From positions 22,028,871 to 22,092,870 of the forward strand of contig NC_092676.1 in the NCBI RefSeq assembly GCF_964355755.1: a stretch of 64,000 nucleotides of DNA, written 5' to 3'. Positions 1 through 38,894 of the stretch are shown here, piece by piece. The notes under the pieces are model-generated. The model was not told the origin of the DNA and searched no databases. It saw nothing but the letters and a program-made list of their open reading frames with translations. A program made the position numbers and the translations under genes. The stretch is from Antedon mediterranea. Taxonomy: Eukaryota; Animalia; Echinodermata. How positions within the stretch are numbered: the first letter of the stretch is position 1; every line of letters begins with the position of its first letter.

Positions 1-52
1 ATATTCAACAAAAAAATAACAAAGATAATTTTTTCAGTGGGACAATACACCT
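1..52. mobile_element. Probable right end of a Kolobok-like element
   Basis: Ends in GGGACAATACACCT|TTAA; the other end is outside the window. Confidence 0.4.
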
Positions 53-289
53 TTAAGTGTAAGTCTTCACTTAGCATGTAATTGGTGGATGCAGTGACAT
101 TACTATAATAAACAATAAGTAAATACACTTACAGTATTGGAAATCTAAATTTTGTTTTTGCATTGACTTATCAATCGAAAAAAGATTATGTTTCAATCTG
201 AATAGTTTTCACAGATAAAATTAAATTTCAATGCTACAAATTTAGAACAAAATAAAGTCATATCAGATTCACATCTCTAATTCATTATT

Positions 290-510
290 GATGAATTCTT
301 ACAAAATTAATGAACTACTCACGGAATTGGTGACTGTCAAGAAATTGTTAAATTTTCGCGAAATTGTTGAATCTTCACAATATTAGTGAATTATTATGAA
401 ATTGGCAAGTTTTCACGAGAGTGATGAATTGTCTCGAAATTGTTGAATTCTTAAGAACTTGATAAATCCTCACGCAATTTGGGAAATTCTCCAAAAATTG
501 GTGAATTTAC
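290..510. repeat. Degenerate ~20-21-bp minisatellite
   Basis: Recurrent GAAATTGTTGAATT-like units. Confidence 0.55.
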
Positions 511-540
511 ATTAGGCCTAAATTGGGGAATTATCTGTAA

Positions 541-721
541 AAGCTTGGTTCCCACTAGAACGTAACGCAAGGACGTAAACGCAACGCAAGCGTTTTAACC
601 AATGACAAGCGAAGTTATAGACAGTTAGCAATCACAAGCGAACAAGCCATCGCTTGTGATTGGTCAATTCACTTGCGTTGCGTTACGTCCATGTGTTGCG
701 TCGCTAGTGGGAACCACGCTT
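541..721. mobile_element. MITE family A (AAGCTTGGTTCCCACTAG TIRs; possibly PIF/Harbinger-like)
   Basis: Palindromic element with CGCAA/TTGCG subrepeats. Relatives at ~8457-8614, 12740-12875, 15688-15896, 16942-17168, 17941-18148, 19762-19963, 21821-21946, 50122-50272 and 53293-53437. Confidence 0.88.
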
Positions 722-2086
722 AAGAGTAAAAGCACCTCAAGTCGACGCAAACAATTAAAAACATCATGTGAACCACAATAGCACGTCAGTAATCCGCAAT
801 TTTGTTTCTAACTTAGCTTTATTTTATTCAGTAAAAACGTATGCATATATATTATATAATTCGTCTGAACATTTTGTTTTCTTCATGAACCTTTCTGACT
901 TTTAATCTAGGCCTACTTCAAGTATCTTTATCAAAACATATCGTCAATAAATTATTCTATTCCCCCAGCTTTTTTCAGTTTCATTGGTTAATATTTATGT
1001 ATTACCTACATTTGTTATAGTGTTTTCATGAACCTTTGACGTTCGGTTTATTTAAGGTATGTTAAATCATGTGACTCAAAAACGTCATTCTAGTCATGGC
1101 TATATTTTTTTTGTATGTATATTTTTGTTTGTCATCAGATTTTAGAACACGCCATTCTAACCTATAAAACAAGGCGACCACTCCAGTATCGTATCGTTTT
1201 TTGTATTGTAGTAAATGGCGGTAATGGCCTAATGAACGCCGTAACAGCATTTGTCATTAGTGTTTACATATACTGTAACGACTTGATAGCTCTTTAACAG
1301 ACCATTTCATACGAGAGGTTAAAAGAGCGCTATGTATTATGAAAGAAAATTGCTTGCATTGTGCATTACAAATACCTGTTCTCAAAAGGCAATCTAATTT
1401 TGATTAATTTAATTTTGAGCTTTCAGCTTTCACGACCTTCTACAGTGCAGAATCTACAAGTCCACAGTAAAAAAATACATGGTACCTTGATTTAGATTTG
1501 TATTAATTTGGTGGTGAATGAAATTGATGAATTTATGGTTGATATTTTATTTATTTTATGTCTAGGCACACTGTACTATCAGATAGGTGTTATCCTTATA
1601 TTTTGTGAACCAGGAATAATGACGATAACAAATGGAATAAAAAAAGGATAACGATTATAAAAAAATAAATAAACTCTCACCTAATTTTACTAAAGAATAA
1701 TTCTCAAAATCTGTATTTGAAATCAGATGAATTTATTTCAACATGATCTTACAGATTTAATTATTCCGTTTTAATAAAAACATTTCTAATGATTTAAAAA
1801 ATAATTTACAACAATTAATGTAAATATAACTTCGTCTTTAGGCATAATACTATACATGCATAATACTGCGGGGGTGTCCAACCAAGGACTATACGTTTAT
1901 AAGGATTAATAGCCTACCAATTGACCTAACATTTTACTAAATTCAATCGCGTTTACTGAAAATAAAAAATTCCACCAACGCAAAGAAATTAATAATAATA
2001 ATTTTTAAAAGGAGATTTTATTAATCGTAATTGTAGTTGAAATCAATGTGGATGTCTTGCATATTAAAGCGCTTATTAAAATCTAA

Positions 2087-2616
2087 GCTACACAAGTTGA
2101 CGTGCGCGTACAAAGTATGTAAACTACATAAGTTAGGGTGCGCGTAGAAAATATGTAAACTTCTACACAATACAAGTTGAAGTGCGCGTACAAAATAAGT
2201 AAACTACACAAGTTAGGGTGCGCGTAGAAAATATGTAAACTACACAATACAAGTTGAAGTGCGCGTACAAAATATGTAAACTACACAAGTTAGGGTGCGC
2301 GTAGAAAATATGTAAATTACACAAGTTAGGGTGCGCGTACAAAATATGTAAACTACACAAGTTAGGGTGCGCGTAGAAAATATGTAAACTACACAATAAT
2401 ACAAGTTGAAGTGCGCGTACAAAATATGTAAACTACACAAATTAGGGTGCGCGTAGAAAATATGTAAACTACACAAGTTGGGGTGCGCGTACAAAATATG
2501 TAAACTACACAATACAAGTTGAAGTGCGCGTACAAAATATGTTAACTACACACGAGTTGACACGCGCATACACAATATGTTTGCCGGCTACACAAGTTGA
2601 CGCGCGCGTACAAAAT
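2087..2616. repeat. ~36-bp tandem repeat array (with ~41-bp variants)
   Basis: Unit CTACACAAGTTAGGGTGCGCGTA(G/C)AAAATATGTAAA, about 14 copies. Confidence 0.95.
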
Positions 2617-3045
2617 TCACAGTTTTCATATGGATCGGTATAGATTATATCACACATTTTGAATATCGTTAGTGATTTATTTAATACGTATACACACCTA
2701 CGGGAATTCATAAAATGTGTTTAAAATTTTATGATAGTTGCTCTGTAAATGTCAACTATTTAATTTGTTTAAATTATGCCGAAGGGTCTATAAACAACCC
2801 GTGTGGAAAATGTATTCTGCGCTAAAGGGGACCTACAACTCACAAACATTGAAAGTTCCGCACCTCTCTGCTCCAAATTTAAACAGACAGCAGACACTAA
2901 GTGATTAAACACTCATTTTAAATTAGGGAAGCCCTGAGGTAAATGTACAACCTACACAAAAAAAAGTACCATTGTTTCCTATGTGACCCTTGAAGAGATA
3001 AAGGAACACTGCAATGGTCACGTGATATAAGGCGAAGGTCCATTT

Positions 3046-3232
3046 ATGAAGTGCGCGTACAAAATATGTAAACTACACAAGTTGGGGTGCGCATAGAAAA
3101 TATGTAAACTATAAAAGTTAGGGTGCGCGTAGAAAATATGTAAACTACACAAGTTGGGGTGCGCGTACAAAATATGTAAACTATACAAGTTGAAGTGCGC
3201 GTACAAAATATGTTAACTACACGCGAGTTGAA
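3046..3232. repeat. Second array of the same ~36-bp repeat
   Basis: About 5 copies in the same orientation. Confidence 0.93.
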
Positions 3233-4171
3233 AATAACATACACACGAGTTGAAAATAACATCCTATCCTAATTTTATCATTGAAAAAAATTTTAAAAAA
3301 GATTTATTTTTTTTTATTTTAATTTATTTATGTTCAACTTTAGTTCACTTTTGGTATTCCCTGTCTTGTGTTTCTCTGTTTTTGTTGTTGAATATAATTT
3401 TTTTTTTTATTACGGATATGGGTATTGTTATTCATACAGGTAGTAAAGCTTAGTTGAATAGATTTATCCTTCTAAACGTTTTTTATTGATTCATTTTTGT
3501 TATATTTCACTGATTTTATACATTTACACGTCAACGACTTTCTATATACAATTGTAAGATTTTCAAAACATACATGTGATTAGTGCATTGGCGCCACGAT
3601 TCTCAAAAGTATACCAACAAAAAGTCATCAGTCCAAATTTGCAATCGTTTATTATTACCGGGTTTATTACAATAATCATTATGTATTATTATCTAATCAA
3701 AAATCAATAGGCCTGAATTCATTTTGTATTGTTCACATTCAGCGCTAACTGCAAGTGGCAAAACAGCGGTAACACGCATGCGTGTAGAGATGTCCAGCTT
3801 CAACGTAGGATCGCAAGTTGGTAGGACATCCGGGTTGGTCCGCTCCTTAATTTTGGGGGGAAAATAGTGCAAAAGAAGGATCAACATTAAGTTAAGCAAA
3901 CGTTGTCTTTTAATTGATCCAGTCGATTTGTATAGTGTACAAACTTAATCCATGTGCTAGAGATGATGTAGTCGACAGACAAGAAACAACAGATTATTTA
4001 CATAATACGTAGAGCCGGGTGCTGACGTCAGTATTTATGTTGTATTTTAGTTAATGAATTCGTTTAATTAGAACACATTATTCTCTCATGGTTTGAAATT
4101 TGGACACTTCTCTTTTCAAGACCTACATAAAAAAGAACTTTCAAGAGCTTACATAAAAAAGAAGTAAGAAT

Positions 4172-4206
<35 letters not shown>

Positions 4207-4807
4207 GCTGTTGCGTAATTAAGTCTACACCCATCCAACATAAAGAAAGTAAATAATTTAAAAACTTTCATTAAAAACGTTATTCAAAGGAGTAATACGT
4301 TTGCAAATAGTTTAAGAACCTGTATCCGTCATATAATGTATTGTTTGATGTATTATGTTAAATTGGATGCACCACTTCTGTGTGTGCCACCGATGCAAAG
4401 GTGTCATTTCCTAATAAATTATTTATTTATTTATTTTAACGATGGCGTTAAAAAAATGAAATCTTTTAATCTCCGCTCCGAGACTGTCTTAAAATTACTC
4501 TCTTTACGTGGGTCCATGCCTGGGGCTGCAACTTGCATGCAGAAAAAAACGCAAAACGTGTTGGTTCTTTAATATTATACGTTATCCCACGCAACCCAAT
4601 CTTTAATGTGCACTGGGATTGATTTTCTAACCTGTAATGTGTACTTTTTGCATCAAAAAATAAATTAAACGAAAGCCCTATTAGACGTCCTCAGCAGAAG
4701 AATTGCCACAGACACGTTATAGGCTTATAACCACACATTCGATTTTGGAGCTAAAGACTACGTTCAAAAGAATGTGATTATTGAAGCTTAAACATTTTTT
4801 ATTCTGT

Positions 4808-4840
<33 letters not shown>

Positions 4841-5884
4841 GGGCCTATTAATTAATTTTTTAAAGATGTATCGTGCTAGATCTGCCATGCAACCACTTTA
4901 GTTTATCACCAGCAGACTATCTTTTTTTTAAATACACAGTTTACAAAACTAAGAAAAAATAATGAATGTGCTGAGCTTTGGGAGTGTTTAAATGATGTGA
5001 GTACTTATACACCTTAGGCCATCTTGGCCAGACTAAAATATGCTTTGAAAATGATAAATTGATTCTATGTTTGAGAAACATACCACAATAATATCTACAT
5101 TTTGTTTAGGCCTATTGTGTGATTCAATTTTGAGTTCCACTACGAGCATACCAGCTACTTAACAATTGTTTGGTAAAATAACTAAACAGGCGCTCAATAA
5201 AAATATATTTCTAGGGACGTTTCAATTTTTAATGCAAATTTGATCGATATAATATTACTGTAATCACCAAACATTTAAACATAACAATGCCGAAGAAAAG
5301 TATCTATAATCTCAAATATTTGTCTTGATTATAATATTCGATTTTTATATAAATTTTAAATTTTCATTTTGTTCGTAGACTCGCGTTGTTATCTCATTAA
5401 TACGGTACTGAAAAACTCTGAAAACAGCCTTAGAATTACAGTACTGTTCTACCAAAATTATAAAATGAACAATTAATCAAATGTTTCGTTTACACGCTTT
5501 ATCTTTCTCAGTAATTGTAACATGCGGAAAAAATGCCTATTATTAAAAAATAAACACCACTATTTTACATATTTTCGTTTACACGCTCGACGAGCTTTAA
5601 GTAAATAATCCTCAAATTATTGTGTTAAATCTCCATGGTTAAATCTAGTTCAGTCTCGCTTTCACAGTCAATGACCTAAATCATGCAACGTCCATAAATA
5701 TTAATATATAGTTATAATTTGTTTGACTATACGACAAAATCAAGCTGGAGTCGAGATTGCCTCCAGCTGGCGTCTAGCCTCGACCAAAGACAACCGGGAT
5801 TTTTTTTCTGGGCCTATTTACTTTACGAAATGAGGCAAACCTATCTTCGTTATTAACGTTTATTGAACAATTATAACTCACGCG

Positions 5885-8800
5885 ATGGTTGGTAAGTAGA
5901 CATTATGGTATATTTTTAGTAACCGCTATTTCTCGTCATTTGTCAGTAGTCAGCTAATTAACAGGGGCCATGACCGTCTCACTAATTATGCATTATCTCC
6001 TAATTACTTTTGTTCCCGGGTGATAGTGTATTTTCAGAGACAAACGATCGGCTGAGTAATTTAGTCCGGCTCGCTTCCTGATAAAATTGATCAGGTAAAA
6101 ATTGTATTTTCCAGAATGATCGTAAAATAAAACAAAAGTTATACTTGGTATGACCATTAATTAGTGTTCATGTTCCCAACCAGTTATCCATTCGTAGAAA
6201 GTACCGATGAAGAAGCCAATCTGTGGCGACTTTAATGGACTCGAAACATGCTTACTTCGGTCTTAAGGAATTTTGAATAATTATTTTGTTAGCAATTTTA
6301 CGATATACATTTATTAAACATTTTGATGTTACGTTTGTATAACTTTGTGTATTATAATATTATTATTCACTCGATTCTGCAGATGTCACTAGCTAGAGTC
6401 TAACTGACGATCACAAGTCGTTGTGATAAGATCATCAGTATTGGATAATTTATCTTAGTCCGTTTCCGTTTAAAAAATGTATTGACAAAATGTTTCCAAT
6501 CTTGGAAGATTGACAATAATTATAGCAAGGATATGATACTGCTAAAAAGATTTTAAAAATCGAGTAAAATTGTTGCACGTCAACATAGGTCTACAAATAA
6601 ACGAATATTACACGATGATCACAAGCGAGGTAAATTCTGATCAGAACTGTATTTACACCAAATAAATAATACATACAGTACTTCCCTCTAGATAGAGTTA
6701 AGATATCATGAAAACGAGATTTTTTTATGACAGAAATATATACATTCAATGTATGCATTGTGTAAAAATGCGATATTATTATATTATGAATAACTGCCAA
6801 TTATGACATGGTATTTGAGGGTTTTCGATTGATTAATGTATTCTCCATCATCAAATAAAATGTTGCCATATAAGGAAGTATATAATGATATAACAAAAAC
6901 AAAATTTAAACGTTTAAAGTTGTTTCTTCTTTCATTCATACATTATAACACTGACGATGACGTCATAGAAAGTGTTTCCATGAATGTTTATTCTTTCTAA
7001 CAAATTTTAACGTGTTAATAAAAAATGTTAGTGTTGCTATCCAGTAATGGCAAAGTACTTGTACTACACTAATACATTGACTTCCTGTGCGTATTTTTAA
7101 TGACGTGTGATTTGCTGAAATCTCAAAAGGCTTTTGTGTCTGCGAACTCTGCCATTAAAACATCCACCCGCAATACAAATTGAGTTTCTGCAAACATATT
7201 AAATCTGTCAATACGATGACCTGTCCCTATGTACTTAAAATAGGCTTTTATACATACTTTTTATGGTTAATAAACATGTTTTATTATCGTGCTTTTGAAT
7301 TTGTATGACTTGATCTCATTTTATTTCTATGGCACGTTTCCTTTGTCAATGTATAATTTAATATCAATCGGTCTGTTTATAATGCATTTAATAAAGTTCC
7401 GAAAAAAGAAATCCATGAAATATGATAATTTTACCTTTAAAAAGATAAAATAAATAATCAAATGTAACCAAAACTTCGCTATTTGGTAATTTATTGGACT
7501 TTTTTCCCCTTAAATTATTGTGATCCAAAATGTTCAGTCAAAGTGAATAACATTAAAATGGCATACTGTATTCGATACATTTTTTTACAAGGAAGAAACA
7601 GTATAAATTTACCCAAAACCAGTTGTCTGGCAGAAAGTGTGCTTCCGAATTTAATTTTTCTTTACTTTTAATTACATGTTTCTAATAATTTGTATATATT
7701 TTTTGGATCAAGTATAAACAGTTATTTTTAAACATTAGTATTTTCAGAGGAACAACCTTTACTGATCAGTTGTATTTCGTTTTTGTCTTACAGCTTCGGG
7801 TGTGCTGTTGATGTTAGTTACACTGGTGAAGTCTGAAGATTGTCTACAGATGCGGGACGAATGTCTTGGTGATTTGGAGTGTGGCTTTGCTCTTGAAGAG
7901 ACCCCTAAACCAGACGTGTGTGGTGACGCCGGTAAGTTAAAGTAACTCGAGTTAGTAGTGCATTAGCAGATTTAACGACGTTCAATAATTTAATATTATG
8001 TTTAAATTGATAGTTATCCAATTCACCTTGAAAACCACAATTATGACCATGAGAAACAAAGACGATTTTCTTTCTTTTTTTAATAATAAAGGGGAAAAAA
8101 AATACCTCTACTCATTACAGTTTGATCAGCTGCCTTTGTTTTGACCCTTTCTGTTTTCGTCGTATGTTCTGTTAATGTGTTTAAAAACATTAGTAACTTT
8201 ACTTATGGCCTTCCCTACACAAGTTTCTCTGGTTTTACCATTTGGTTTTACTTGTTGGGACTTTGCCACTTTCATAACTTAAAGAAATCTATTAGCATTT
8301 TTTTTATAGACACTTCTTTCTTTTAAATGTTTTAATCGCATAATTTATTTGTAAATTGAAAGAAATGTTTCTTATCGTTATTCTGATTTTTGAAAGAAAT
8401 AAATGTTCACTTGATTGATTGATTGATTGATTGCATTCTTACTTCTCTGCATGATGATTGATTCCTGCACTAGAGGCACATCATAATGATGTAACGCAAC
8501 GTAAGTGAGTTGACCAATCACTGCGATGGATTATTTGAACTGTCGCTTGCCATTGGTCAACACGCTTGCGTTGCGTTTATGTCCTTGCGTTGCGTCCTAG
8601 TGGGAACCAAGCTTAACTAATGTCAAATGGTTTACGATGATGACCCTCACTCGACTGGGCTGACAATGTCCCTGTTGTAATCTTTATTTAGGCTCACCAT
8701 GCCAAATACCAGAATTACAAAAAATGTTTTGTGTTCAAATGTTGGAGATGTTGCGAAGAAACTATCACCTTAACGAATGCACATGTGATCCAGACAGCAC

Positions 8801-11800
8801 TGAATGCCGTCAATTCCAGAATTTAATAACAAGACATCCATGTGAGGTTGGAGGTGAGTTTATCAGTGCCTCTAAAACCTGGAGAATTCCAGCGAAAGGC
8901 AAACGTTGACTAGTGCGTATTATTATTTTCGTCTACTTTTTGTGACGTGAACAATTGTGCAACCAATCAAATATCTGGATTGTACGATTGGCGCGAATGT
9001 ATTCGCCTAGTGCAATATAATTCTCAACTAATAATACCACGTTTGGACCAATTTGTATATTACGATTTCATACAAGTTCCCACGTTTTAATTCTTTTATT
9101 TTTAGGAATAAATATTGGTAATCATGTGTCTTTATCAAGTTTTTAATGAAAATTCAAAATGTCATATCGATACTGTATATATCTTATTTGAAGTATATCA
9201 TAGGAGGTAAATCTAGGGTGCACGTGCTTCACATGTGAACCCTTGTTGCAAAGACCTTAACGTAACTCGTAACTAGCATTCCATGACACAGGCACCACAT
9301 ACACGTGGGATGCTATATTGTTGAAATTGCTTATGTTACTGGACAAATAATGTATATCTCTGGAGATAATCACTGAAAATCGAGTGCAATGTATTCAGTA
9401 TTATTTTAGTCAATACCGTACAATTCCTATTCAGTGTTCTGATAAAAGCAATTTAGTGCATCATAATCGTTTCTACCAGATATAATTAATGAATAACACG
9501 TTTCTTATAAATCCATAGATGGAGCATTTATAAATCCTACGCCTGATGATACACTTATAACTGATGATTACTCAAGTTACTCGTGTAAGTTTTTAGCTGA
9601 GCATACAGTTTTTGTCCTCTGACGAGATATAGTGAGACAGTATTTTGGGTTAGGTTAAGTAATATTTAGATATTAGGTGCTATTGCATGAGCATGTTGCC
9701 TTCTATAGACACTATACTGCAGTATATGATATATCATTCTTCAAATGTTTGTAAAATTATCGATCCTTAATATGGAGCTTTCAATTCATAGACGAAAAAC
9801 GATATTAACAGACTGTGACGGGCGTGTACGTGCCATCCGTATTGTTGCTAAATGTATTTAGGTTTTGAGAGACGAACGACGGCTAACCTAGCATAGAGTA
9901 TGTTCAGTAACCAGACGGAGTCTGAAATTAGTGTCGTAAAGGAAATGATTAACCTGAAAAACTTAACCTAAAAAGATGGCTTCTTACGATGGTGTGCTTA
10001 AATTGTGTACAAATACAATTAATTAATTGATAGTACAGTAAATGTTTACCTGTATCTTATTGTTTGAAGGTTTGCATGGCGAAATCAAATGTTGATATAT
10101 ATAGTTTGCGGTATACCACGTGTATTAGTTCTGAAAAGAACTGTTGAGTTTCTCGACGTTTCGATCAATATTCTCTGATCGTCCTCAGGAGTGAGAAATC
10201 CTCCAATCAAAGGACAAGGTGCTATATAATAAATAATGAAGGCAATTTGAGCCCTCGAATAAAATAGTACATACAGGAGTACTGGAACAATTTCATAATC
10301 CGTGTGTTCCAATTAAATTTAGTTTATCAAACTGCAACTGCATCGTTACTAGTATTTTAAACGTGATTCCGTCTAAAAATAATTTCTTTAATTATTTCAG
10401 CTTCTTTATCAGAAGACGAACCCGGAAAGCAAGAAAATACAGATGTTGATATGGATCCAATATCGAAAGTAATAAGTAAGTTAAAATGTACACTCTAGCT
10501 TGGCAATTTTAATTGCCATGCCCTTTCAAAAGAGAATGAACTGAAACTGAACCTTATAAACGATTTAAATAGAATTTAACCCTTGTCGTATTGTACTGTA
10601 ATTGTATTTATATTTACACTTTTCTCCGATTACTAACATCCATATTGATGAATACCATTGTTCTAATTAACCCAGTTATCTCTTAAAGACGGTATGACCT
10701 GCATCTTTGCATTGTAAACTATAGACAGAGAGACTTAATCGCGTGTACGACATTTCTTATGTCGTTATAAATTGATTAAGATAAGTAATGCATTTTGAAA
10801 GCTTTTTTTGTTGTGAATAACCGTATATTTTGTCTAATTTTGTTGCTGTCTCTAGTATTAGTAACTAAACCCAATGACGTGAAATCTTCAAGTGACTCAT
10901 TAGCATCAATATCATCGGAGGTATCATACGATTCAGATTTTAGCTGTAAGTAGCATCTTTCATTCAACTACCTTAATTCTGCGGTTGAGTCAGCAGTGCG
11001 CAAACGATGTGAAAGGGTATAAAAGCGGATATTTATTAGCCACCGCAAGCGTAACTGAAATGTTGGAAATTCGGATTAGCCAGCAGTGAAGATCAGCTGT
11101 TCCGCTTTCTCAGTTAAAATCAGTTTTGTATTAAAAAACTAAAGTACCAGTGGCCCCGCCACCAATCAAACATACAATTAAGTAAATACTATTTCACTTA
11201 AGTCAATATACATATTTAAGAATTTCACTTCAGTTTGAACGTTCTTTTTCTAGGCCTCGGAGACTCCGGCAATTCAATTTATAACTTTTTTATTTATTTA
11301 TTTTTTAATTATAACGATGAGGAAATCTGCCACCTAGCCAATATTCGAACTCGACGAAACCTCCTGCTTGATATGTACTAGACTACTTTCATAGGCGAGT
11401 GGTAACGGTAAGCGGAAAACCGCGTAACTTTCCCCACGTAGAATCTGTGTCTATCCTGAGCGGGAACCGCGTAGCTTGTCCCACGTAGAATCTGTGTCTA
11501 TCATGAGCGGGAACCGCGTAGCTTGTCCCACGTAGAATCTGTGTCTATCATGAGCGGGAACCGCGTAGCTTGTCCCACGTAGAATCTGTGTCTATCATGA
11601 GCGGGAACCGCGTAGCTTGTCCCACGTAGAATCTGTGTCTATCCTGAGCGGGAACCGCGTAGCTTGTCCCACGTAGAATCTGTGTCTATCCTGAGCAGGA
11701 ACCGCGTAGCTTGTTCCACGTAGAATCTGTGTCTATCATGAGCGGGAACCGCGTAGCTTGTCCCACGTAAAATCTGTATCTATCCTGAGCGGGAACCGCC

Positions 11801-14800
11801 CGTCCGTTCCGCGTTTTGTGTAAACGGTTATAAGAAATAAGATAAATTCTATATTTTTATTACCGTTACCGCTCGTCTGTGTAAATTGGCCTGGAGCTTT
11901 CATAGCAATGTTCAAATAAAATTAACATGTCATTGTCTTCTTTGTAACATTTAAGCTGGTTCAAGTTTTGTAAGTTCCGCACTGAACATGGACGATTGTT
12001 GGATAGAAATTAACCGATGTCGAAGAGACAGGTCATGTGATAACGCCCTCACCACATTTGAAATGGCTTGTTCATGTGACGTCAAACAGTATTTCGCATG
12101 CGTATCAGATGCACCAAAATGTCAAGAGGTAATCGTAACCATTACATATCCTAGAGAATGTAGATACATTATCAACTTACTTTATTTCTTTTTTGGGTAA
12201 ACACATATGTACCTCAAACCGTACTTTACCGGAGTATGTTCGACAAGTAGATCCTAATCATAATGTACACTAATTTTAAATTAAAATTAAATAAAACCGC
12301 TACATACGTTTACACAGTACTGTATTTGTCTAACTTACAATCAATGACGTTAAATGATGCGCAACTGTTGCGTGTTGTTTTAGTTGCATACGAAGCTTTC
12401 ATTTTACCACGCGCACCTCCAATACGAAAAGTATAAAAATCACTGTACGCATGCTTAGAAAAATATGAGCATGTGTATGACTTATTTACTTGAGAGCTAC
12501 GCAGAGTAGAAATTATACTGAACCAATTCTGTGGGCTACAATTAACTTGTATTTTTAATATTCCTGACAGGCAAGAGATGGATTAGATGCGTTTAATCTG
12601 GTGAATTGCGGCTGCCCGGAGACTATGAAACACAAGAAACGCTGTCAGTTTGTCTACGATAAGTTGTTTAACAATCCCTGTATTGATGGTAAATAAGCAA
12701 TCACATTATTTGTACTATTATAATAAAAGTATGACACCCTTTGGAAACCAGCAATGGGTCCCTAAAAACACAAAAGAACGCGACGCAAGAAAATCGAGTT
12801 GACCAATGAAAAGCACCGTTCGAATAATCCACCCCTCGTTGATTGGTCAAATTTAATTGCATTGCGCTTACGTCATATAGTAGTATCCCAAACGAGAGGG
12901 TTCTACTGTATGTCTATTTATCTGTTCTTTTAAATTCTGAAGTTTTTTAATATTTGATTTTTTTGTTATCACTAGTGAGCTGCCGGGAAAAGTACAATGT
13001 ACTTAACGAATATCATTAATGTATAGATTACACAAATATAACTAATGTAAACAACTATCTTATATGAATAAATCACAATTCTGTCTCGCCTAAAATTAGA
13101 CTGTCACATAGATGTTATACCCCTGTGAATTTCGCCCCTGGACCAAAATCCTAGATTAAATCTAAATCGCAAACGCCCACTCGTAATGAAAACTGTTACC
13201 ATAAATTATTTAGAGGATTACCATGGAACAGATTTTATTGTTTATAACAAATGTTGGAGGTGTTTAATGGCGCTTTTTTTCCAAACGGCATATTCGTAAT
13301 GATTTTCATAATCCTTTCAAACGATAAACGTCTACCCACACAATTAATATAGATATAAGTATATAGATCCTTCTCGAAAGAAGTAATGAAATCACAATAA
13401 ATCTTGAATATCTATGAATATAAACTTTTTTAGATAAATCAATATACAGGGATTCGTTCTCTTGTTGTGTTATTCAGTGATTATCCCTCTTATAAAGAGT
13501 TAAACATAATTATCTACGCAAACAAAGTTATAGCGTAATAAGAACGTATGTCAACTCCCTTTCATTAGATAGTTTGAGCAAATTAACGTATACTTATCCG
13601 TGTCTGAACCCTTATAGAGATACGGATAAATTTAATTCCATATTTGCGACCATTTACCGGATTCCCAGTGCTGTATCTGAGCATCAGACCGTTAGAGGGC
13701 AGATACTTCCTGTCCGACCCGAAAGTTCATTGTTTGTCTACAAAACATTGGCCTAAGACGACCTAGGTAATGTTTACGAGTTTCGCTTTCTGCGGGTGAA
13801 ACCAATTATTGCAGGCGACGATTGTACACGGCATAGTCCATGGGAGGTATTTTGTTATCCGACAAACTTTATAATATAGACATTCTATTTTGTTTCTGCT
13901 GGCAACACTCTTGTAATTTCTAGTTTAATAGATAGTCTTGTAAACAATTTTCAATTCTTTTACCACACTTTATAACTAGTGTAGCAATTTAATTTTCAAC
14001 AAATAAATAAAGTTTTAGAAACGTATCGACAATTTGTATCTTGAGCGGTATCGATATCGTACTTTTACACACAGACCTGTGGATAATGGAGGTTGCTCAA
14101 ACTACCAGTTAAAAAGTGGGGATCTAAGGCCGGACTTCAATAGACATGTTATAGGAATATGCACACTTTTTACCCCAAACCCCTTCATTAATGGTTACCA
14201 CATCTTTTTATTGCAGGTTGTCAATCTAACAATGTGCAATCAGACACGGCACTTAATGGTATGTTATTGCTGTTCGTAATTTTGGAAAATAGTAGATATT
14301 TGTAATTTGGAAATACTTTAATTTACTAATACTTCGAGGTTTTTTAGGTAAATTTATATTGTGAATTGTGAATTCGGAAAAAACGTTGTTTCTTTGCCGA
14401 CTTATAGCGCATAAAATGGTGTTTTTAGCTTGCTTTTTGAGTGCGACTCCGGTTGCATCAATGTCTTTTTTTTTATTAAAAATCGTATTGGCCTGTATCA
14501 CGTTATACATTACAGTGAAAAGAGTAATAAATGAAGATATGTAAATAAAATGGTTCAAACGGCCATGATCACATTAAAAATATAACTTGTAAGGCGAAGC
14601 CTTTAATGAGTTTAAAACAGTTCAAATGTAAATGGATGTACGCGAAAATGCCTGCAAGTACTTTGACCAATCAATACATTCGGATGATCAGTCTGTAGGT
14701 TGTGATTGGTCAAGCTTCATATTCTTATTGTATTCCCAATTGAAGAAAAGAGCCGAATATTGATATGGATCGCCAGTGGTGTACACAAATGTAAAATATT

Positions 14801-17800
14801 TATTGTTGTTTTACCTCATTCCAGCCAAGATGCTACCGTACCAAGACGCTATAAATAAATGTACAGAATCAGATGACGTTTGTCTTGATAGCTTAGTAGC
14901 GTTTTCTAGAGAATGTCACAACTGTTCACAGGCTGAGTGTCAGCAAGCAACGGGCGATTTCATCAGGCATGTAGATCCAATAATATCACACGCCGTACTG
15001 TTCAGTGACTGCAAAAGGGCTAAGAATGGTGACGGGTGTGTGGATACCACTTCTGAACGCGAGTGCGGCACGATTGTGTCGCCAGTGCCTAACTGTTTGG
15101 AACTTCCTATTCGATGTGGAGAAATTCTTGGATGCCAGTAAGTATAAACATACCGCCATTGGCAGAATCTGATAATTTAGGGATTTGAATTTAGAGAAAA
15201 AACCAAAAACTTACTATTTTATATGCTTCTCTTCTTCTTTCAGATCTTTTCATTCTCTTATTTCTCTTAGGAACAATTCCTTTTCTTTTGATAATTATTA
15301 CTGTAGTCTTCCTCTTTCTGGCAAAAAATATAATAATAAAGCATGAGGTAACTATAAAAAATTAAAATTCAACTTTTGTAAATATCTTTTAGGGTACAAT
15401 TTCAAAATTTCCAGAACCACTGCGATCCAAACAGATGCAATCAGGATGTTTACAGTTTGTGCCGGACCGCATACGCTGCTCTCTTTGAAACCCCGATTGC
15501 TATCAAATGTACGTGCGACCCAAACGCCGTGGACTTTTCAGAATGTCGAGTTTTTCAACGCCGTGTTTCAGAAAATAGTTGTGTTGGTAGGTGAAAAAAA
15601 AACAAAAATTAGGAAAATATAAATGAACTTTTCCTAATCTTTACTCGTTATTTTGTGTATTGTATTACATTGTCTACTTTTTCTCTGAAGCTTGTTTCTC
15701 ACTAGCTACGCAATATAACGCAACCTACGCAACGTAAGAAAATACCCTTTCAACCATGGTGTTTGCCTCCGCCTGCGTGAAATCAAACCTACGATGTTTG
15801 CATCACTATTGCGTCGTCGGTTCCCACTTGTATTTATGCAATACAGCACTTTGCGTCGATACGTCGCTGCGTTGAGTTCTAGTGGGAACCAAGCTTTAAG
15901 AAACATACTGCCTATTTTACCTTATTTCAATCAACATCCCTTTTATACCACATTACAGAATCGGCATGGTTTTTGTGCTATATTTAACTTTACTACTTAC
16001 TCCTCTCACGTGTGTAATTTAATAAAAGCATGTCATTCATTCTCATCAGTGACTTCCGGCATTTTCTCAACATGTTTCCTTAATCACATCTAATGTTTAT
16101 CTATTTTTGTAATTTCAGATAAATCAATTCTTTATTACCAGGATCCGACGTTGGAAGAACGTAGGGACTACGAAAGTACGTATTTACCCGTGTGAATATT
16201 GGAAAAACTATTTTTAAAATTTGATATTCCATTTTCCAGCAGTCAAATATTCGTAATTCAAAAAATAATATCATTTTTATCTATTTGATCATATCTTGTA
16301 TTGAATCAGGAATGTGCTTGGTTATAATAATACTAATATAATATCATCCATATGAAAAGTAAATTAGTAAAAATGCGAAGTAAATTTGACAAAAAAAATA
16401 GTGTTCAATGAAATTTAGATTGCGTCCTCTATATTCGTTTCCGAACACGAAATAGATTTTACTTTTATTTCTAACGAAAACAATAACTAACGTATTTATA
16501 CGTATTTTTGTTTTCGTTATCGTATTTGTAATGTTGCAAAACCTCTCGTTTTTGTTTTGGTCGTAGTATGTACGATAAGGCTTGGAAGTGAACCCAAGGC
16601 CCTACGTGTCAAGATTGGTACTTTTATTCGGGTAAGCTTTATTATCAATATGCTATACTTTAAAAATCTCTTTCTATGTCCAAACACATCTTTACTATAC
16701 GATTAATGTAGTATATTATGTGCAACCATTTACCATAAACTTCTTTGATAATGGTCACTACAGGTTCCAAATTCTGAGGGTGAATCTTCAATTTGCCAGT
16801 GTAGAGCTGACAGAAAACTCGGCTACTGCCATGCTATCCCTGCTGGCCAGAATTTGTCTTGTAAAGAAACGCCAAGCACAGTTTACAATGGTTTGTATTG
16901 TCGCATAATTACTGTTATTTTAAAGTAAAGAACCCTGTCTAAAGCGTGGTTCCGACTAGCGACGCAACGCAGCGAAGTTTTGACGCAAAGTGCTGTATTG
17001 CGTAATCACAAGTGGGAATCGACGACGAAACAGTGCTGCAAACATCGCATGTTTGATTTCATGCAGGCGGGGGAAAACACAATTATCGGAAGGGCATTTG
17101 TTTACATTGGTTGTGTAGGTTGCGTTATGTTGCGTCGTTAAGCTTGGTTCCCACTAGAACGTAACGCAGATTAGATTCTTTATTTATTTATTTGTTGTTA
17201 TTGTTTCTATGTTATAGAGAATGATTCAACACATAGAAATGGAATTTGTGCATGTATTTCTGGTGAATTTATATGCTCAAAACCTGAAAGTGAACTCAGC
17301 GACTATCAGTTAAACAGTAAGTAGTATAAAAAGAAACAAATGTTCCAAACACAGTCACAACAACAATCATTTCAAATGAAATGAAACCCATTTTTTCCAT
17401 TGAAATAACAACAAAGTTGTATCATTCCTATATTAGTTATTTTCATTCAATACGCAAAAGTTTGATTGATATGAAACTAAATAAAAAAAAACTGAGCGAA
17501 ATACTTGTAAAGTACAGGGCGACAGAGGGCATGGTCATTGAAAATAATGATAGCTCGAGATCTTATAACGTTTTGTGATGTCAGCATTTTATGCATTTTC
17601 CTGAAAATCAGTGGGAATGTTCTTTTGCTATACAGGATAAAAGAGAAAAATCAAGACAATTTAGTAAATCAAAGTTACCAAAAAGATTTTACACTTTCAG
17701 ATGGACAAACATACTTATTCATCGGATATAGTAGCAGTGAATTACAGTATGTTAGTGAGTTTATCGGGGAGCAGGTACCAGATGCCGTGTTTCATAAACA

Positions 17801-19122
17801 GTTGCAACAACTATTGGATAATGAGACCAAAGTCTCTTCTAAGGTATTTATGCAACTTACAAGTTCCGTATTTAAATTTGACCAGTGTCTACACACATTC
17901 CTCATCTCACATGAGAACATATACCCTAACCTAACCCTTAAAGCGTGGTTTTCACTAGCGACGCAACGTAACGCAACGCTACGACGTATTGACGCAAAGT
18001 GTTATATTGTGGGAACCGAAGACTCAGTAGTGCTGCAAACATCGCAGGTTTGATTTCACGAAAGCGGGAGCAAACACAATTACTGGAAGGACATTTTCTT
18101 ACGTTGCGTAGATTCCGTTACGTTGCGTCGCTAGTGCGAACCAAGCTTTACTGGCACCACATATTATACACAGGATATTCCGTATTATGTAATATGCCTA
18201 TTATGGTAATTTCTTGGTTGGTTCTACTTACATTAAAGACACTGTAAATACATGTACCGTTTTATTTCAATTCAACGGGTAGATCCTACCCGTATAATAG
18301 ATTCTATTTGTTGGAGATAATGGTCGGGTGACCGTATTCACCAATCGCATTTACGATACTTTACTTAAGATGAAATGTAATAGGCCCATTTCCTCAATTT
18401 CACCAAAGAATATTTGAATGATAGAGTACTCTTTAGCGTATGTATATGACTCAACATGTTTAACCACACATTCCGACCTTTGAATCAATTTCATTAGAAT
18501 ACATATTTAGTGTATCAATTCATCATTAATAATATATATGATTTTATTTAGTGTACGTTGGTTCTAATTCCAATAACGACCAGAGGAAACCTACTGTTCA
18601 GGTCAGTAGAAGAGGAAAGTGACCCTAACCAGGTACGTCAGCTTTAAACGTGGTGAGGACGATGACGCAAAGATGATTTTAAATTAGATGATGATTTAGT
18701 AATAAGATAATTCCCCTGGTAGACCTAACTACTGTATAATGTTTGGTCTCAAGGACGTAAGGACACCTCAAGCAATGTGGCCAGTCATCGGCTAGTGATA
18801 AACAAAGCTCGTCCACAAAGTTGTGTTTTTTCAACAACATTTATGGAAATAACTTCTCATAAATATACTATATTCTTTTCAGACATCAGTTACCTGTATA
18901 GGGTCTATGATGCACTTGGCTAGTATGATAAACGGCAGGAATATGCCACTGGTCACCAGTCCAGTACTGTCTGTACTGAAAATAGCCAGCGTTGACTACC
19001 TTGACACCAACAGTAACAATCCTCAACGACTAAGCCGATCGTCAGGTACTAATCAGCATCTACCTCACTGTCTTTCATGGTTGATAGTGTTAGCCTCGTT
19101 AGTATTTCTAGATTGCTTTTAA
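5885..19122 (+). CDS. GFRalpha-like (GDNF family receptor alpha/GAS1-type domains) GPI-anchored protein with RECK-like C-terminal modules; 18 coding exons, ~729 aa
   Basis: Phase-consistent GT-AG exons: 5885-5891, 7794-7931, 8692-8853, 9519-9584, 10401-10475, 10856-10945, 11956-12128, 12571-12688, 14217-14258, 14825-15137, 15393-15586, 16119-16175, 16567-16631, 16764-16890, 17218-17316, 17701-17843, 18552-18632, 18883-19122 (2190 nt, open). Signal peptide MVASGVLLMLVTLVKS. Four Cys-rich repeats of type C-x6/7-C-x5-C...CxC...C...(N/H)(P/S)C, e.g. CRTAYAALFETPIAIKCTC...ENSCV and NCGCPETMKHKKRCQFVYDKLFNNPCID. Hydrophobic GPI-type C-terminus. The small exons 1 and 9 are the least certain. Confidence 0.85.
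10062..10200 (-). mobile_element. Penelope-like element pseudo-LTR remnant
   Basis: The - strand reads CTCCTGAGGACGATCAGAGAATATTGATCGAAACGTCGAG...TTCGCCATGCAAACCTTCAAACA, a pattern typical of PLE ends. Confidence 0.65.
10149..10198 (-). ncRNA. Minimal type I hammerhead ribozyme (Penelope-associated)
   Basis: CUGAGGA-(C)-GAUCA/UGAUC stem II-GAAA-C-GUC with palindromic helix III (ACGU). Stem I is CUC/GAG, or alternatively UUUCUC/GAGAAA. Confidence 0.65.
11380..11892. mobile_element. MITE with an internal 47-bp tandem array (~8 copies, 11417-11799)
   Basis: Imperfect TIRs (...GCGAGTGGTAACGGTAA and TTACCGTTACCGCTCGT...). Unit GAACCGCGTAGCTTGTCCCACGTAGAATCTGTGTCTATC(A/C)TGAGCGG. Confidence 0.88.
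15688..15896. mobile_element. MITE family A, ~205-bp subfamily
   Basis: AAGCTTG...CTAGTGGGAACCAAGCTT; core shared with the 16942, 17941 and 19762 copies. Confidence 0.85.
16942..17168. mobile_element. MITE family A copy plus the start of a second copy
   Basis: AAGCGTGGTTCCGACTAG start; a second AAGCTTGGTTCCCACTAG begins at ~17140. Confidence 0.8.
17941..18148. mobile_element. MITE family A copy
   Basis: TA|AAGCGTGGTTTTCACTAG...CTAGTGCGAACCAAGCTT|TA. Confidence 0.85.
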
Positions 19123-19761
19123 TCAAATAGAAACACCATTCCATTGTAAATATCACTGCTATTTCTATAAGTATTATCAACGATAATAATTTATATATAA
19201 GCTTTACCACGCAAAAATGGTAGGTTAAATCTGTTCAAGGAGTCTCAGAATTATCAAATTGTTTAGCAAAAAAAAACATTTTTAATTTCTTTTAAGTTAA
19301 TATTGTTTTCAAAATACAATAAATAGTCTATGTGTGCACATTTAATTTAAAAGAATAAAAAAACACTGGTTAGATTTAAAAAAACAATACTGAATTGCGC
19401 AAATAGATAAATGCCAACCTAGTACTTCTATCATGGCAACAATTAGTGCTGTTAATAGTCCCATTATACAAATTGGTATAATCTGATGTATTTTTCTTAT
19501 ACTTTATTGTTGGGTGTGTGCAGAAAACGTGTATGTCTGTTATAATTGTACATCGTCAGTAACTTATCACCATCAAATATGATTTGTTGTAACATTGTAT
19601 TTAGTTCATTTCATTCGTTCAAAGCTGGCTGCGGCAGTGGTTAGGACACTTAACTGCTACATACGATAAGAACATCTTCCAGCTGTAAATGTTTACCTCT
19701 AATATTGGAAAATACTAGGGCGGATACGCGGCGAGGAATTGGACTTGAACCCCACGACATA

Positions 19762-22158: not shown

Positions 22159-23064
22159 TAAGACATAGTTTGCTCTCTTTACTATTAATTTTTCTTTTAT
22201 TTTCTTCTTGCTACGTTCTTTCATTTGTGACTGTGGTATGGACATAAATAGACTCTCGAGAAATATGGCTTCGGATTCGTATGAAAGCACTCTTCTCTTC
22301 TAGTCTTTAACAATAAAGCTGCTGACCTACCTTTCCTTTAAATAAATTTGTGAAAGAATTTAATTAGTCTGAATGATGTTAATAGCTTAGTTTTTAGAGA
22401 TTCTAAAGTAAGGTAAGCATGGTTTTGGATTCTCTAAACTGAAGCGTTTCGGTGGCTAATAAACACATAAAACTTTATTTTAGCATGTTAAGTATGATGT
22501 ACACAATATAAATTTATACGGTACAAATAATATTGTATGAGAAAATGTCAAGATACCACCTAGATTAACTACCTTCTTGTTGGGTAAAATGTTTTGCTAG
22601 ATCGTTTAAATAATGAAGAAAAAAAAACCCAAAAATGGTTTGTTCTTCTAAATGTATTAATCCGTATATTACGGCAAGATTTTAAATATAATTCAATGTC
22701 AGTTTAAAAATATGCTTATGAGTAAAATTTGGATAATCTTTTTCATGAGATGACAATATAGTATTATCTTGTACCGAAAGAAAATATTTAATCATATTAT
22801 TAATGTAAAGAACTTGATAAAAGAAATACTGAAATGAGACTCATCAATGTATTATAATGAATAAATGTCTTGAAATAAAGTGGTGCACATGCCTCTTAAA
22901 ACATAAAGCAAACTTGTCTGTCATTTTTTTAAAGGGGGGGGGGGGGTTGTTTGTGAGTTATACTTCGGTTATGCAACACACTAGTAAGTTGACTTTGTTG
23001 TACAACTCTATCAAGTACTGATGGTATCTTCCGACCTCTTCGTTTACTTTGTGTTGTGTGAAAT

Positions 23065-28416: not shown

Positions 28417-29879
28417 ATGAATGAATGGTTACCGTACATTGTAAGTAGGCTACACTTTGAATGTTTACTGAGTAGGAGGCTTAAGTATGGTAATATACGC
28501 CATTACAATAGTTGTACAATGAATATGCAATATATTAGATGAATAAATAAAGTTTGAAATGTAAAATCATAATGGCTTGCCTCCATTTGTTTTCTGAGTT
28601 TGTTCTACTGTATTATGCGATTAATTAGGGCATCAATATGACATAATAGGGGGTGAGCATGTGTAAATTTATTCAGTTATACTCGTTGATAGTCGATAGT
28701 ACCAAATAACAACACTAATCAACTATTTTATATTTAGGTGATGTATTCCTATTATCATCGAACGTTTTACATTGTTTTACTTTCTTTGATGTCATTGGTT
28801 CCGTCGTTGTTTCTGGTATATAGCTCATCAAAAAGTGTGGAAAATAAAATAGTGATGAAGCCGGCTACACCAACAAAGGCAAGGTACAAGAATGATTCAA
28901 CTCAATTTAATTCAACTGTATTTACACACCGAGTTCCAGATCATTCAGTTCTCAAAGCTAGTTCTAAAAGTGTTGGAAAACTGGTTCATTTAGGACCTAA
29001 AGGTCGAGAATTTGACTTCCGGACAAAAATAGATTTTACGCCTTCGGTAAGAAACGCCTTGCTTTGTATTTAAAATGAGAAATTGATAGCATGTATCTAT
29101 AGTTACTATAGTACGAAAGCCTAATCCTGCCACATGAGTATAAACATTATACAATCAATATGAAAATAGCTATGTCGAAATTTAGACCTACAATGTTGAA
29201 ATTTTGACACAGTAATTGGAAACAATCAGATAGAGTTTGAATAACGTTAGAAGAATCGGGTGAACAAGATGTAAAATTAATGGACTTTATTATCGTCTGT
29301 GTTGTATTCGTTTGTAGTTTTACAGATTTCTCATCTGAAATAGGGTTCATCATGAATATCCTCACAGACATGTTACAATGACATTGACGATGACCATACT
29401 GTAATATATCTGAATCATATATACATTGCTCATATAAAGTTTACGTTTATCATAATGCAAATTCTGTGTAAAACTTCAGTGCAATTCAAAGTAACAACAT
29501 AATTATCTTGCCTTTAACCTATATTTTCATATCAAATACAATATAGTGTAGCTTATTGTCTTTGTCTACTTTGCATCTATTTTTCATTTTGTTCAGTATA
29601 ATTATGTCATCATCTAAATTATGCAAGTTTTGAAAAAAATATTAAAACAATTACACTCCTATTGCCAAATAATGTCAATTCCAGAATAAAAAAAAAATCA
29701 TGTACTAGATCCAATACAAATAACAAAGAAACATTTAAGACTTCCATTAAGGCAAGCCAATAGCCGTAAACACTGAAGCCACTATTTTCTTTTATAACAT
29801 TATAATTTAAACATAAATAAAACATCAATGTACAATAATTTGACAATAATTCATTTCATTCATTATGCACTTAAAAACG

Positions 29880-34594: not shown

Positions 34595-34723
34595 TGTTAT
34601 ATATGCATGTTGTAACGACGCCTTTGGCGTGCCATAATTGTTCTCTCTCTTCTGAATAAATGTTTAGTTGTACACGCTGTGTTTAGAGCCCTTACTTTAC
34701 ATTATAATTTACTATATACAACA
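34595..34723 (+). repeat. 5' LTR (129 bp)
   Basis: Identical to 38895-39023; contains AATAAA. Confidence 0.97.
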
Positions 34724-34741
34724 TAAATTTTGGCGACGAAG

Positions 34742-38725: not shown

Positions 38726-38894
38726 ATAGACATGAAACAAGAAGTTGATTTTAGTTGAACTTTATTATTCATTATTGCATTGAAAGATATTATACAGAAA
38801 ACTTTGATTGAAACATTATAATTACGAATGATTACAGAACAGTACAGAACTCTAGAATCTAGTCTTTACTATTCTTAAAATGGTAGGGAGGATG

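What the first reader, a model, noticed from the sequence alone, without database searches (positions are those of the whole stretch)
5885..19122. GFRalpha-RECK chimeric GPI-anchored receptor
Seen in sequence: after four GFRalpha-type domains, the spliced ORF continues with CTIRLGSEPKALRVKIGTFIRVPNSEGESSICQCRADRKLGYCHAIPAGQNLSCKETPSTVYNENDSTHRNGICACISGEFICSK. It then reads YLFIGYSSSELQYV...CTLVLIP...TCIGSMMHLASMINGRNMPLVTSPVLSVLKIASV before a GPI-type tail. From memory, these match two parts of RECK. One is the beta-rich Cys module (CKLGEASDFIVRQGTLIQVPSSAGEVGCYKICSC...CNVCSCFAGNLVCS). The other is the membrane-proximal domain (...ACNKEAEKIESLINSDSPTLASHVPLSALIISQV). RECK's intervening Kazal-like region appears absent, and GFRalpha domains stand where its CC domains would be. 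Vertebrate GFRalpha1-4, GFRAL and GAS1 have no such modules. Inference: an exon-shuffled or ancestral co-receptor linking the RET/GDNF co-receptor scaffold to the RECK (Wnt7/GPR124, MMP regulation) scaffold. I know of no description of this architecture.
Basis: partly seen in the sequence, partly recalled or inferred. Interest (0 to 1): 0.9.

Follow-up and report, generated by a model that had tools for sequence, protein, structure and literature searches.

The report
Invertebrate GFRα receptor with RECK stalk
This feather-star gene is spliced into one message encoding a GDNF-receptor-like (Gfrl) protein whose last third, found in relatives from insects to acorn worms, matches two parts of the human protein RECK in sequence profile and predicted shape, so two surface receptors thought to be unrelated likely share an ancient stalk.

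Summary
An 18-exon, 729-residue frame splices cleanly. One RNA-type contig joins exons 9-18 through nine GT-AG joints, including the disputed ones. RefSeq Antedon mediterranea models match residues 60-723.

The RECK likeness is real but remote. A 16-sequence profile of the tail ranks human RECK first among 177,635 PDB sequences (E 2.4e-8; RECK 531-613 and 834-936, skipping the Kazal region). Predicted structures match RECK at TM 0.69-0.78. Three other profiles and four single sequences missed RECK.

It is not a crinoid chimera. 19 of 27 homologs carry both halves, named hits span six bilaterian phyla, and the tree follows the species tree. The gene is an orthologue of invertebrate Gfrl, characterised in Drosophila; that paper noted the long tail but never mentions RECK. 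The RECK parts tied to Wnt7/GPR124 (CC domains) and MMP9 (Kazal region) are absent, so a shared stalk is likelier than shared signalling.

My searches found no paper making the link. This scan noted the same tail in another genome (e1-7708944) without showing the kinship.

The parts
5885..5891 (+). Exon 1, start codon (inferred)
   Evidence: Only ATG-started, in-frame candidate of up to 120 nt before a GT[AG]AG donor in window 1-7780; no RNA or RefSeq support seen
7794..7931 (+). Exon 2: likely signal peptide and first half of GFRa-like domain D0
   Evidence: In frame; D0 match spans residues 19-101 at 26 bits; exon alone 9 bits; absent from RefSeq models
8692..8853 (+). Exon 3: second half of D0
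   Evidence: RefSeq models start at Met60 here; X1 contig covers 8617-8853, starting inside the intron
9519..10945 (+). Exons 4-6 (9519-9584, 10401-10475, 10856-10945): Ser/Thr/acidic linker, all phase 1-1
   Evidence: Identical in RefSeq; 30% Ser+Thr, 20% Asp+Glu; pLDDT about 30
11956..12688 (+). Exons 7-8 (11956-12128, 12571-12688): GFRa-like domain D1 with a basic patch
   Evidence: Pfam GDNF stretch; 35 bits; 4 Lys/Arg in the 9 residues ending at the motif cysteine
14217..14258 (+). Exon 9: linker
   Evidence: Joined to exon 10 in the X1 contig
14825..15586 (+). Exons 10-11 (14825-15137, 15393-15586): degenerate D2 and D3
16119..16175 (+). Exon 12: phase 1-1 linker between GFRa head and tail
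   Evidence: Both joints in the X1 contig; in RefSeq
16567..16890 (+). Exons 13-14 (16567-16631, 16764-16890): first beta-rich cysteine module and start of the second; homologous to RECK from about residue 531
   Evidence: Pfam EGF1_RECK E 2.4e-4, under cut-off; family profile to RECK 531-613, i-E 9e-6; strands in model
17218..17316 (+). Exon 15: second beta-rich module (DUF7921 / FnI_RECK / VWC-like)
   Evidence: DUF7921 E 1e-4 and FnI_RECK E 0.009, both under cut-off
17701..19122 (+). Exons 16-18 (17701-17843, 18552-18632, 18883-19122): membrane-proximal alpha/beta domain homologous to RECK 834-936, then a likely GPI signal
   Evidence: i-E 0.003, bias 0.1; TM 0.78 to RECK models over 117 residues; ferredoxin-like topology; hydrophobic end; RNA read-through to 19264
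22252..22310 (+). Alternative last exon used by both RefSeq isoforms; replaces all or the end of the hydrophobic tail
   Evidence: X1 contigs break at the 19045 donor, which fits a branch; the joint itself was outside the stretch laid

Best explanation
This is the crinoid copy of the invertebrate GDNF-receptor-like (Gfrl) gene, encoding a likely lipid-anchored surface co-receptor whose four GFRa-type domains sit on a three-domain stalk that is likely homologous to the stalk of RECK. Shown: one spliced message from D2 to the tail; the same head-plus-tail layout in six phyla; profile and predicted-structure matches of the tail to RECK. Inferred: the layout existed in the ancestor of protostomes and deuterostomes; the stalk most likely came from a RECK-like gene, since RECK is reported from sponges and cnidarians and I found Gfrl tails only in bilaterians; vertebrate GFRa receptors later lost it. 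Inferred mechanism: the helical head captures a ligand or partner (a Maverick-type TGF-beta protein with a receptor kinase, or an NCAM-type adhesion protein, as reported for the fly), and the two beta modules with the alpha/beta domain form a compact pedestal that holds the head off the membrane. RECK uses the same pedestal, with its Kazal region looped out of it and a different head. Odds: Gfrl orthology about 0.92, homology of the tail to RECK about 0.9, pedestal as the main job of the tail about 0.6.
For: Splicing. Family: 28 hits at E<=0.001 among 1.84 billion representatives, one being the gene's own isoform; 19 of the other 27 carry GFRa domains and tail in one chain, 6 tail only, 2 head only. 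20 of 27 were looked up, 19 had a species: 17 genera of echinoderms, hemichordates, nemerteans, annelids, nematomorphs and arthropods. Leave-one-out tail profile scores the crinoid tail 140 bits against a best of 12 among 500 shuffles. Tree of 24 rows: ambulacrarians 100/98, spiralians 98/94, ecdysozoan branch 99/96. The Anopheles homolog P0038 has four GFRa domains, a Thr-rich stretch and the tail, and carries close versions of two short motifs printed for DmGfrl. RECK; Pfam EGF1_RECK hits 8 of 16 tails and passes the cut-off in 2 of 27 homologs; 202-209 residues superpose on four RECK cluster models at TM 0.69-0.70 although RECK has a long insert there; the last domain alone gives TM 0.80 to the arthropod family, 0.78 to RECK and at most 0.57 to anything else listed. 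Full-length GFRa1 and GFRa2 chains are in the PDB set and are not hit by the tail profile at E<=5. Function: PMC3527400 (GPI anchor shown, neuronal expression, FasII interaction); Myers 2018 (title only).
Against: RECK was found by 1 of 4 profiles (A2 yes; A1, A3, A4 no) and 0 of 4 single sequences; the word-based search with A2 returned no RECK among 4,510 candidates. The beta-module stretch has a high cysteine bias (13.8) and also draws TILa and VWC hits (6 and 4 of 16), so part of it may be a generic module. Both sides of the structure matches are predictions. Drosophila Gfrl itself was not retrieved. The tree has no vertebrate, cnidarian or RECK row and the crinoid branch is long (2.3). 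PMC3527400 reports that fly Gfrl did not activate Ret and says RET seems absent from echinoderms; I could not check Ret or RECK in this genome. The D2 arginines that bind GDNF-family ligands (motif recalled) are not kept in the alignment to GFRa3. Anneissia RefSeq splits head and tail into two consecutive models.
Confidence: 0.72

Rival explanations
1. The shared tail is an active docking or dimer-forming unit with the same job in Gfrl and RECK, so Gfrl is a functional paralogue of RECK at the membrane and not just a look-alike stalk.
For: The tail is kept across six phyla with 9 invariant columns in 16 sequences and seems to keep one arrangement despite RECK's insert. RECK forms dimers and its 781-971 fragment binds GRP78 (PMC12842694, section 5). 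VWC-like modules often bind TGF-beta-family ligands (recalled); weak VWC hits.
Against: Most invariant residues are cysteines; identity within the family is 19-29%. Vertebrate GFRa works without the tail. No binding was tested.
Confidence: 0.2
2. The likeness to RECK is convergence or independent reuse of common modules (VWC/FnI-type fingers plus a SEA-type domain), not descent of a three-domain block.
For: 7 of 8 PDB sequence searches missed RECK; TILa and VWC hits; the last domain has a common ferredoxin-like fold with best solved matches at Z 5-6.
Against: Two separate stretches hit RECK in the same order, the second with almost no composition bias; RECK is far above all other families by predicted structure (0.78 against 0.57 or less).
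Confidence: 0.06
3. A recent, crinoid-specific fusion of a GFRa gene with a RECK piece, or two neighbouring genes joined by annotation.
For: The Anneissia annotation has head and tail as two models; the head-tail boundary is a phase-1 intron.
Against: One contig bridges all joints; 19 of 27 homologs have both halves; the tree follows the species tree; the Anneissia head model already contains the start of the first beta module; no second GFRa- or tail-like locus in the window.
Confidence: 0.02

Closest known systems
Invertebrate Gfrl (Drosophila Gfrl; PMC3527400; Pfam GDNF PF02351 + DUF7921 PF25537 + Fn1_3 PF25868 clusters)
   Same: Four GFRa-like domains D0-D3, basic patch in D1, long region between D3 and a GPI-type end; the arthropod homologs carry the same three-domain tail.
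   Different: 729 residues against about 1,040; the Ser/Thr-rich linker lies between D0 and D1, not between D3 and the tail; D2 has lost a cysteine pair; an alternative last exon may remove the anchor.
RECK (human, 971 residues; PDB sequence 8tzp_C)
   Same: Two beta-rich cysteine modules (RECK 531-613) and the membrane-proximal alpha/beta domain (834-936) in the same order before a GPI-type signal.
   Different: No CC domains, no Frizzled-like domain, no Kazal region; so none of the parts mapped to Wnt7/GPR124 binding or MMP9 inhibition.
Vertebrate GFRa1-4, GFRAL and GAS1
   Same: Helical disulfide-rich domains; family profile hits GFRa1 at E 1e-45 and GAS1 at 1.6e-7; D2-D3 fold.
   Different: Three domains or fewer and no tail (for the chains held in the PDB set); ligand-binding arginines not kept (motif recalled).
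SEA-type extracellular domains (TROP-2 C-terminal domain, Gpr126, dystroglycan, MUC16)
   Same: Predicted beta-alpha-alpha-beta-beta-alpha-beta order next to the membrane; the top three solved matches are TROP-2 (twice) and Gpr126 (model of the Anneissia homolog).
   Different: Z only 5.8-6.0 (rmsd 3.3-3.8, 91-103 aligned), tied with unrelated folds; a lead, not a family assignment.

Membership tests
Invertebrate Gfrl | Four GFRa-like cysteine-rich domains D0-D3 | tested here: met
   D0, D1, D3 at 26-44 bits; D2 degenerate (7 bits, 8 Cys) but folds as D2 of the D2-D3 pair
Invertebrate Gfrl | Long region between D3 and the anchor, conserved with arthropod Gfrl | tested here: met
   Leave-one-out profile 136-140 bits; TM 0.73 to the arthropod cluster model
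Invertebrate Gfrl | Descent with protostome Gfrl-type genes | tested here: met
   Tree congruent with the species tree; no outgroup; Drosophila sequence not in hand, Anopheles stands in
Invertebrate Gfrl | N-terminal signal peptide | tested here: inconclusive
   16-residue hydrophobic start in exons 1-2; no predictor run; not in RefSeq models or in the RNA pieces seen
Invertebrate Gfrl | GPI anchor | tested here: inconclusive
   Small-residue cluster then hydrophobic end, best 15-residue hydropathy 2.2; RNA reads through it; no predictor or assay
Invertebrate Gfrl | Neuronal expression; action with FasII/NCAM or Ret and Maverick | not testable with these tools
   Needs experiments; no genome held to look for the partners
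RECK | Five N-terminal CC domains | tested here: not met
   No RECK N-terminal family at E<=1; the head is accounted for by GFRa domains and a disordered linker
RECK | Frizzled-like cysteine-rich domain | tested here: not met
   No FZ_RECK hit at E<=1; D3 ends about 17 residues before the tail
RECK | Kazal-like region | tested here: not met
   No Kazal hit; RECK 614-833 has no passing match; about 16 residues in its place
RECK | Pair of beta-rich cysteine modules (Pfam EGF1_RECK, FnI_RECK) | tested here: met
   At family level; the crinoid protein itself is under the Pfam cut-offs
RECK | Membrane-proximal alpha/beta domain | tested here: met
   i-E 0.003; TM 0.78 over 117 residues
Vertebrate GFRa co-receptors | D2 arginines that bind GDNF-family ligands (motif recalled) | tested here: not met
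   The arginine-rich stretches of GFRa3 D2 align with non-basic residues
SEA domain | Ferredoxin-like fold with a clear structural match to solved SEA domains | tested here: inconclusive
   Topology fits; best Z 6.0, under the level of 8 that the tool calls meaningful; Foldseek found nothing at E<=0.001

The most novel reading that the evidence does not exclude
Gfrl is RECK's overlooked paralogue: both are built on one ancient GPI-anchored pedestal (two beta fingers packed on a SEA-like domain) that carries swappable helical ligand-catching heads, CC plus Frizzled-like for Wnt in RECK and GFRa for TGF-beta-type ligands in Gfrl, and the pedestal does the same active job in both (dimer formation or docking to a partner). 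Vertebrate GDNF co-receptors would then be RECK-derived proteins that shed the pedestal, and the fly Gfrl null would be a ready test bed for RECK's unexplained C-terminal third.
Probability: 0.22. Interest if true: 0.78.

Novelty: new member of a known kind. Interest (0 to 1): 0.47.

Why it matters
RECK is treated as a single-copy gene whose CC domains occur nowhere else (PMC7502776, PMC12842694), and the fly Gfrl paper left the long stretch before the anchor unexplained. A shared three-domain stalk ties the origin of the GDNF co-receptors to RECK, sets domain boundaries for RECK's little-studied C-terminal third, shows a natural Kazal-less version of it, and suggests swap experiments in an existing fly mutant. 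It does not reveal a new pathway, and the gene family itself is known.

Tried and rejected
[quoted passage not shown] Word-based searches found only the gene itself or three family members. PDB sequence searches that missed RECK: P0002, P0005, P0011, P0018 and profiles A1, A3, A4. Foldseek with the full model found only GFRa-family chains at E<=0.001 and nothing for the tail; with the tail model nothing at E<=0.001; no RECK chain appeared among the rows shown, which excludes nothing, as a solved RECK tail may not exist. No run on record as RNA was listed; X1 behaves as RNA because its contig skips introns. Exons 1-2 without cover in the X1 pieces shown: not evidence either way. The first read-laying was swamped by intronic repeats. 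The feature search scored under 0.9 (leads only, including the nematode cluster) and that gave nothing. PMC11521371, PMC6954182, PMC6216580 and PMC8989417 gave only reference lines or unrelated passages. No complex was predicted: no ligand or partner sequence was in hand. Rejected: two genes, recent fusion, RECK membership, Wnt7 or MMP function by homology.
Full report
1. The gene. I rebuilt the model from the window: 18 coding exons between 5885 and 19122, 729 residues, 17 of 17 introns GT-AG, one stop at the end. A search with exon 18 returned one protein, a RefSeq model from the crinoid Antedon mediterranea. Its two isoforms equal my model over residues 60-704 and 60-723. They start at Met60 and end in another exon at 22252-22310.

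2. Splicing. Of five runs listed, none is on record as RNA; X1 is guessed to be. Laid on 14150-19300, one X1 contig of 1,285 nt skips nine introns at GT..AG and joins exons 9 to 18. A second contig runs from 19016 to 19264, through the hydrophobic end and the stop, so the GPI-type ending is transcribed. Exons 1-2 are not confirmed by any piece I saw. They rest on a D0 match that spans exons 2-3 (26 bits) and on exon 1 being the only fitting ATG-plus-donor candidate under my filter. This is one run from one study.

3. The head. Pfam GDNF scores E 8.5e-8. Against a profile of 54 domains from non-crinoid homologs, D0, D1 and D3 score 26, 35 and 44 bits; D2 scores 7 and has 8 cysteines. The AlphaFold model (mean pLDDT 74) matches solved GFRa D2-D3 fragments at target TM 0.63-0.71. 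So there are four domains, one degenerate. In the alignment to GFRa3 the arginine-rich stretches of D2, which I recall as the ligand contacts, are not kept.

4. The family. phmmer over 1.84 billion representatives gave 28 hits at E<=0.001, one of them the gene's own isoform. Of the other 27, 19 hold GFRa domains and the tail in one chain, 6 the tail only and 2 the head only. I looked up 20 of the 27; 19 had a species, from 17 genera in six phyla: echinoderms of all five classes, hemichordates, a nemertean, annelids, a nematomorph and arthropods. None was a chordate or a non-bilaterian. With the crinoid row left out, the tail profile scores the crinoid tail at 140 bits, against a best of 12 among 500 shuffles. 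A tree of 24 rows (P0003, P0004, P0020 and P0029 left out; P0038 standing for P0025) separates ambulacrarians (100/98), spiralians (98/94) and ecdysozoans (99/96); the crinoid branch is long and there is no outgroup. ESM Atlas clusters with GDNF, DUF7921 and Fn1_3 are mostly arthropod, one mostly nematode (feature scores under 0.9, leads only).

5. It is Gfrl. PMC3527400 (abstract, section 13 part 1, discussion, passages) describes Drosophila Gfrl: four GFRa-like domains, Thr stretches at 615-777, a GPI site near 1008, and a 'long sequence' between the fourth domain and the anchor. It says similarity to mammalian GFRa is restricted to the four domains, mentions Gfr-like proteins in sea urchin and C. 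elegans, and has no occurrence of RECK or Kazal. The Anopheles homolog P0038 has that layout and close versions of the two short motifs the paper prints, before D0 and in D1. The crinoid D1 has a basic patch at the same place. I did not retrieve the fly protein, so its tail is inferred from the mosquito.

6. The RECK match. A profile of 16 tails, searched against 177,635 PDB sequences, ranks human RECK first at E 2.4e-8; the next hit is a VWC domain at 0.2. Two stretches pass: RECK 531-613 (i-E 9e-6, bias 13.8) and 834-936 (i-E 0.003, bias 0.1). The 220 residues between them, which hold the Kazal motifs (PMC12842694, section 5 part 1), have about 16 residues as counterpart here. From the other side, Pfam EGF1_RECK hits 8 of 16 tails (best 6.7e-10) and passes its cut-off in the Ptychodera and Asterias proteins, 2 of 27. 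By predicted structure, residues 415-645 of the RefSeq protein superpose on an arthropod family model at TM 0.73 and on four RECK cluster models at 0.69-0.70 over 202-209 residues; the next rows are at 0.36 or less. The last domain alone gives 0.80, then 0.78 for two RECK clusters, then 0.57 or less. That three domains superpose at once suggests one compact unit from which RECK's Kazal region loops out; this is inference from two predicted models.

7. Against. Three other profiles (two full-length, one of six fragments) and four single sequences did not report RECK, nor did the word-based search. The homology is remote and depends on a focused profile rich in deuterostome rows. The beta modules also draw TILa and VWC hits. 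I could not run the reciprocal search from RECK, and I could not see whether the Pfam RECK seeds include Gfrl sequences.

8. Fold of the last domain. Models of the RefSeq protein and of the Anneissia fragment give strand-helix-helix-strand-strand-helix-helix-strand. The best solved matches are TROP-2 and Gpr126 extracellular domains at Z 5.8-6.0, with dystroglycan, PCDH15, amnionless and MUC16 lower among unrelated folds. I recall these as SEA-type domains. It is a lead only.

9. How it likely works. Shown for the fly protein: GPI anchoring, neuronal expression, fertility defects in nulls, interaction with FasII, and no Ret activation in those assays (PMC3527400). A later paper's title places Gfrl with Ret and the TGF-beta ligand Maverick (Myers 2018; title seen in reference lists only; text not held). 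A Maverick/GDF15-like ligand, Panda, is reported in sea urchin (PMC4564238, search listing only). So the head likely captures a TGF-beta-type ligand or an adhesion partner. In RECK, CC1 and CC4 serve GPR124 and Wnt7 (PMC6588345, passages) and a Kazal fragment inhibited MMP9 (PMC12842694). Those parts are missing here, so the homology gives no ground for Wnt7 or MMP activity. The shared part is best read as a pedestal. An active shared role is the main rival.

10. History, inferred. RECK is reported from sponges, cnidarians and most bilaterians but not nematodes (PMC12842694, passage citing Chang 2020, which is not held). Head-plus-tail proteins were seen only in bilaterian invertebrates. The simplest path is that a RECK-type stalk, without the Kazal region, came under a GFRa head before protostomes and deuterostomes split, and that vertebrate GFRa lost it. 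The introns at the head-tail boundary and at the point of RECK's insert are both phase 1, the class linked to exon shuffling (PMC7502776, whole text). RECK's own introns were not checked.

11. Novelty. RECK with Gfrl as whole words: 0 papers among about 8.1 million PMC texts and 0.36 million preprints. Searches listed nothing that makes the link, judged from titles, counts and abstract starts of the rows shown. The 2026 RECK review has no occurrence of 'gfr'. Not seen: subscription papers, the earlier in-silico Gfrl papers cited in PMC3527400, a survey of divergent SEA domains that I recall, Pfam/InterPro text, and all supplements; any could hold the remark.

12. Verdict. Real gene, real remote homology, known family. 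New member of a known kind, with an apparently unreported evolutionary link. Interest 0.47.

Noticed in passing
window 34594-39023: LTR retroelement with identical 130-nt direct repeats at 34594-34723 and 38894-39023 and one open 1,332-residue frame with protease, reverse transcriptase, RNase H and integrase hits in that order; the order is that of Ty3/gypsy elements (recalled) and identical ends suggest a recent insertion.
   Followed up: partly
window 19045 and 22252-22310: Alternative last exon used by both RefSeq isoforms; one form drops the hydrophobic end altogether. The Anneissia model P0004 ends in a similar peptide, so a non-anchored isoform may be conserved in crinoids.
   Followed up: partly
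window 5885-7931: Both RefSeq models lack exons 1-2 and so the likely signal peptide and half of D0; the annotation is probably truncated.
   Followed up: partly
window 11418-11799: Minisatellite of 47 nt, 8.1 copies, 96% matches, in intron 6.
   Followed up: no
window about 8490-8620, 15700-15900, 16940-17170, 17940-18150: Copies of a short interspersed repeat in four introns, with very high summed contig depth in both runs laid; probably a non-autonomous transposon family.
   Followed up: no
window 40995-42652: Two 15-nt-unit arrays in opposite orientation (40995-41259, 42412-42652) flanking a 22-nt-unit array (41400-41747); looks like the ends of an inverted-repeat element.
   Followed up: no
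window 28738-29073: 111-residue frame with a hydrophobic stretch near its start, possibly an exon of a membrane protein; no Pfam hit at E<=0.01.
   Followed up: partly
P0006, P0012 (and unnamed P0014): The nemertean Tubulanus has at least two copies of this family with the same longest contig length, grouped in the tree: a lineage-specific expansion.
   Followed up: no
P0017: The nematomorph homolog is 1,355 residues with at least five GFRa-like domains before the tail.
   Followed up: no
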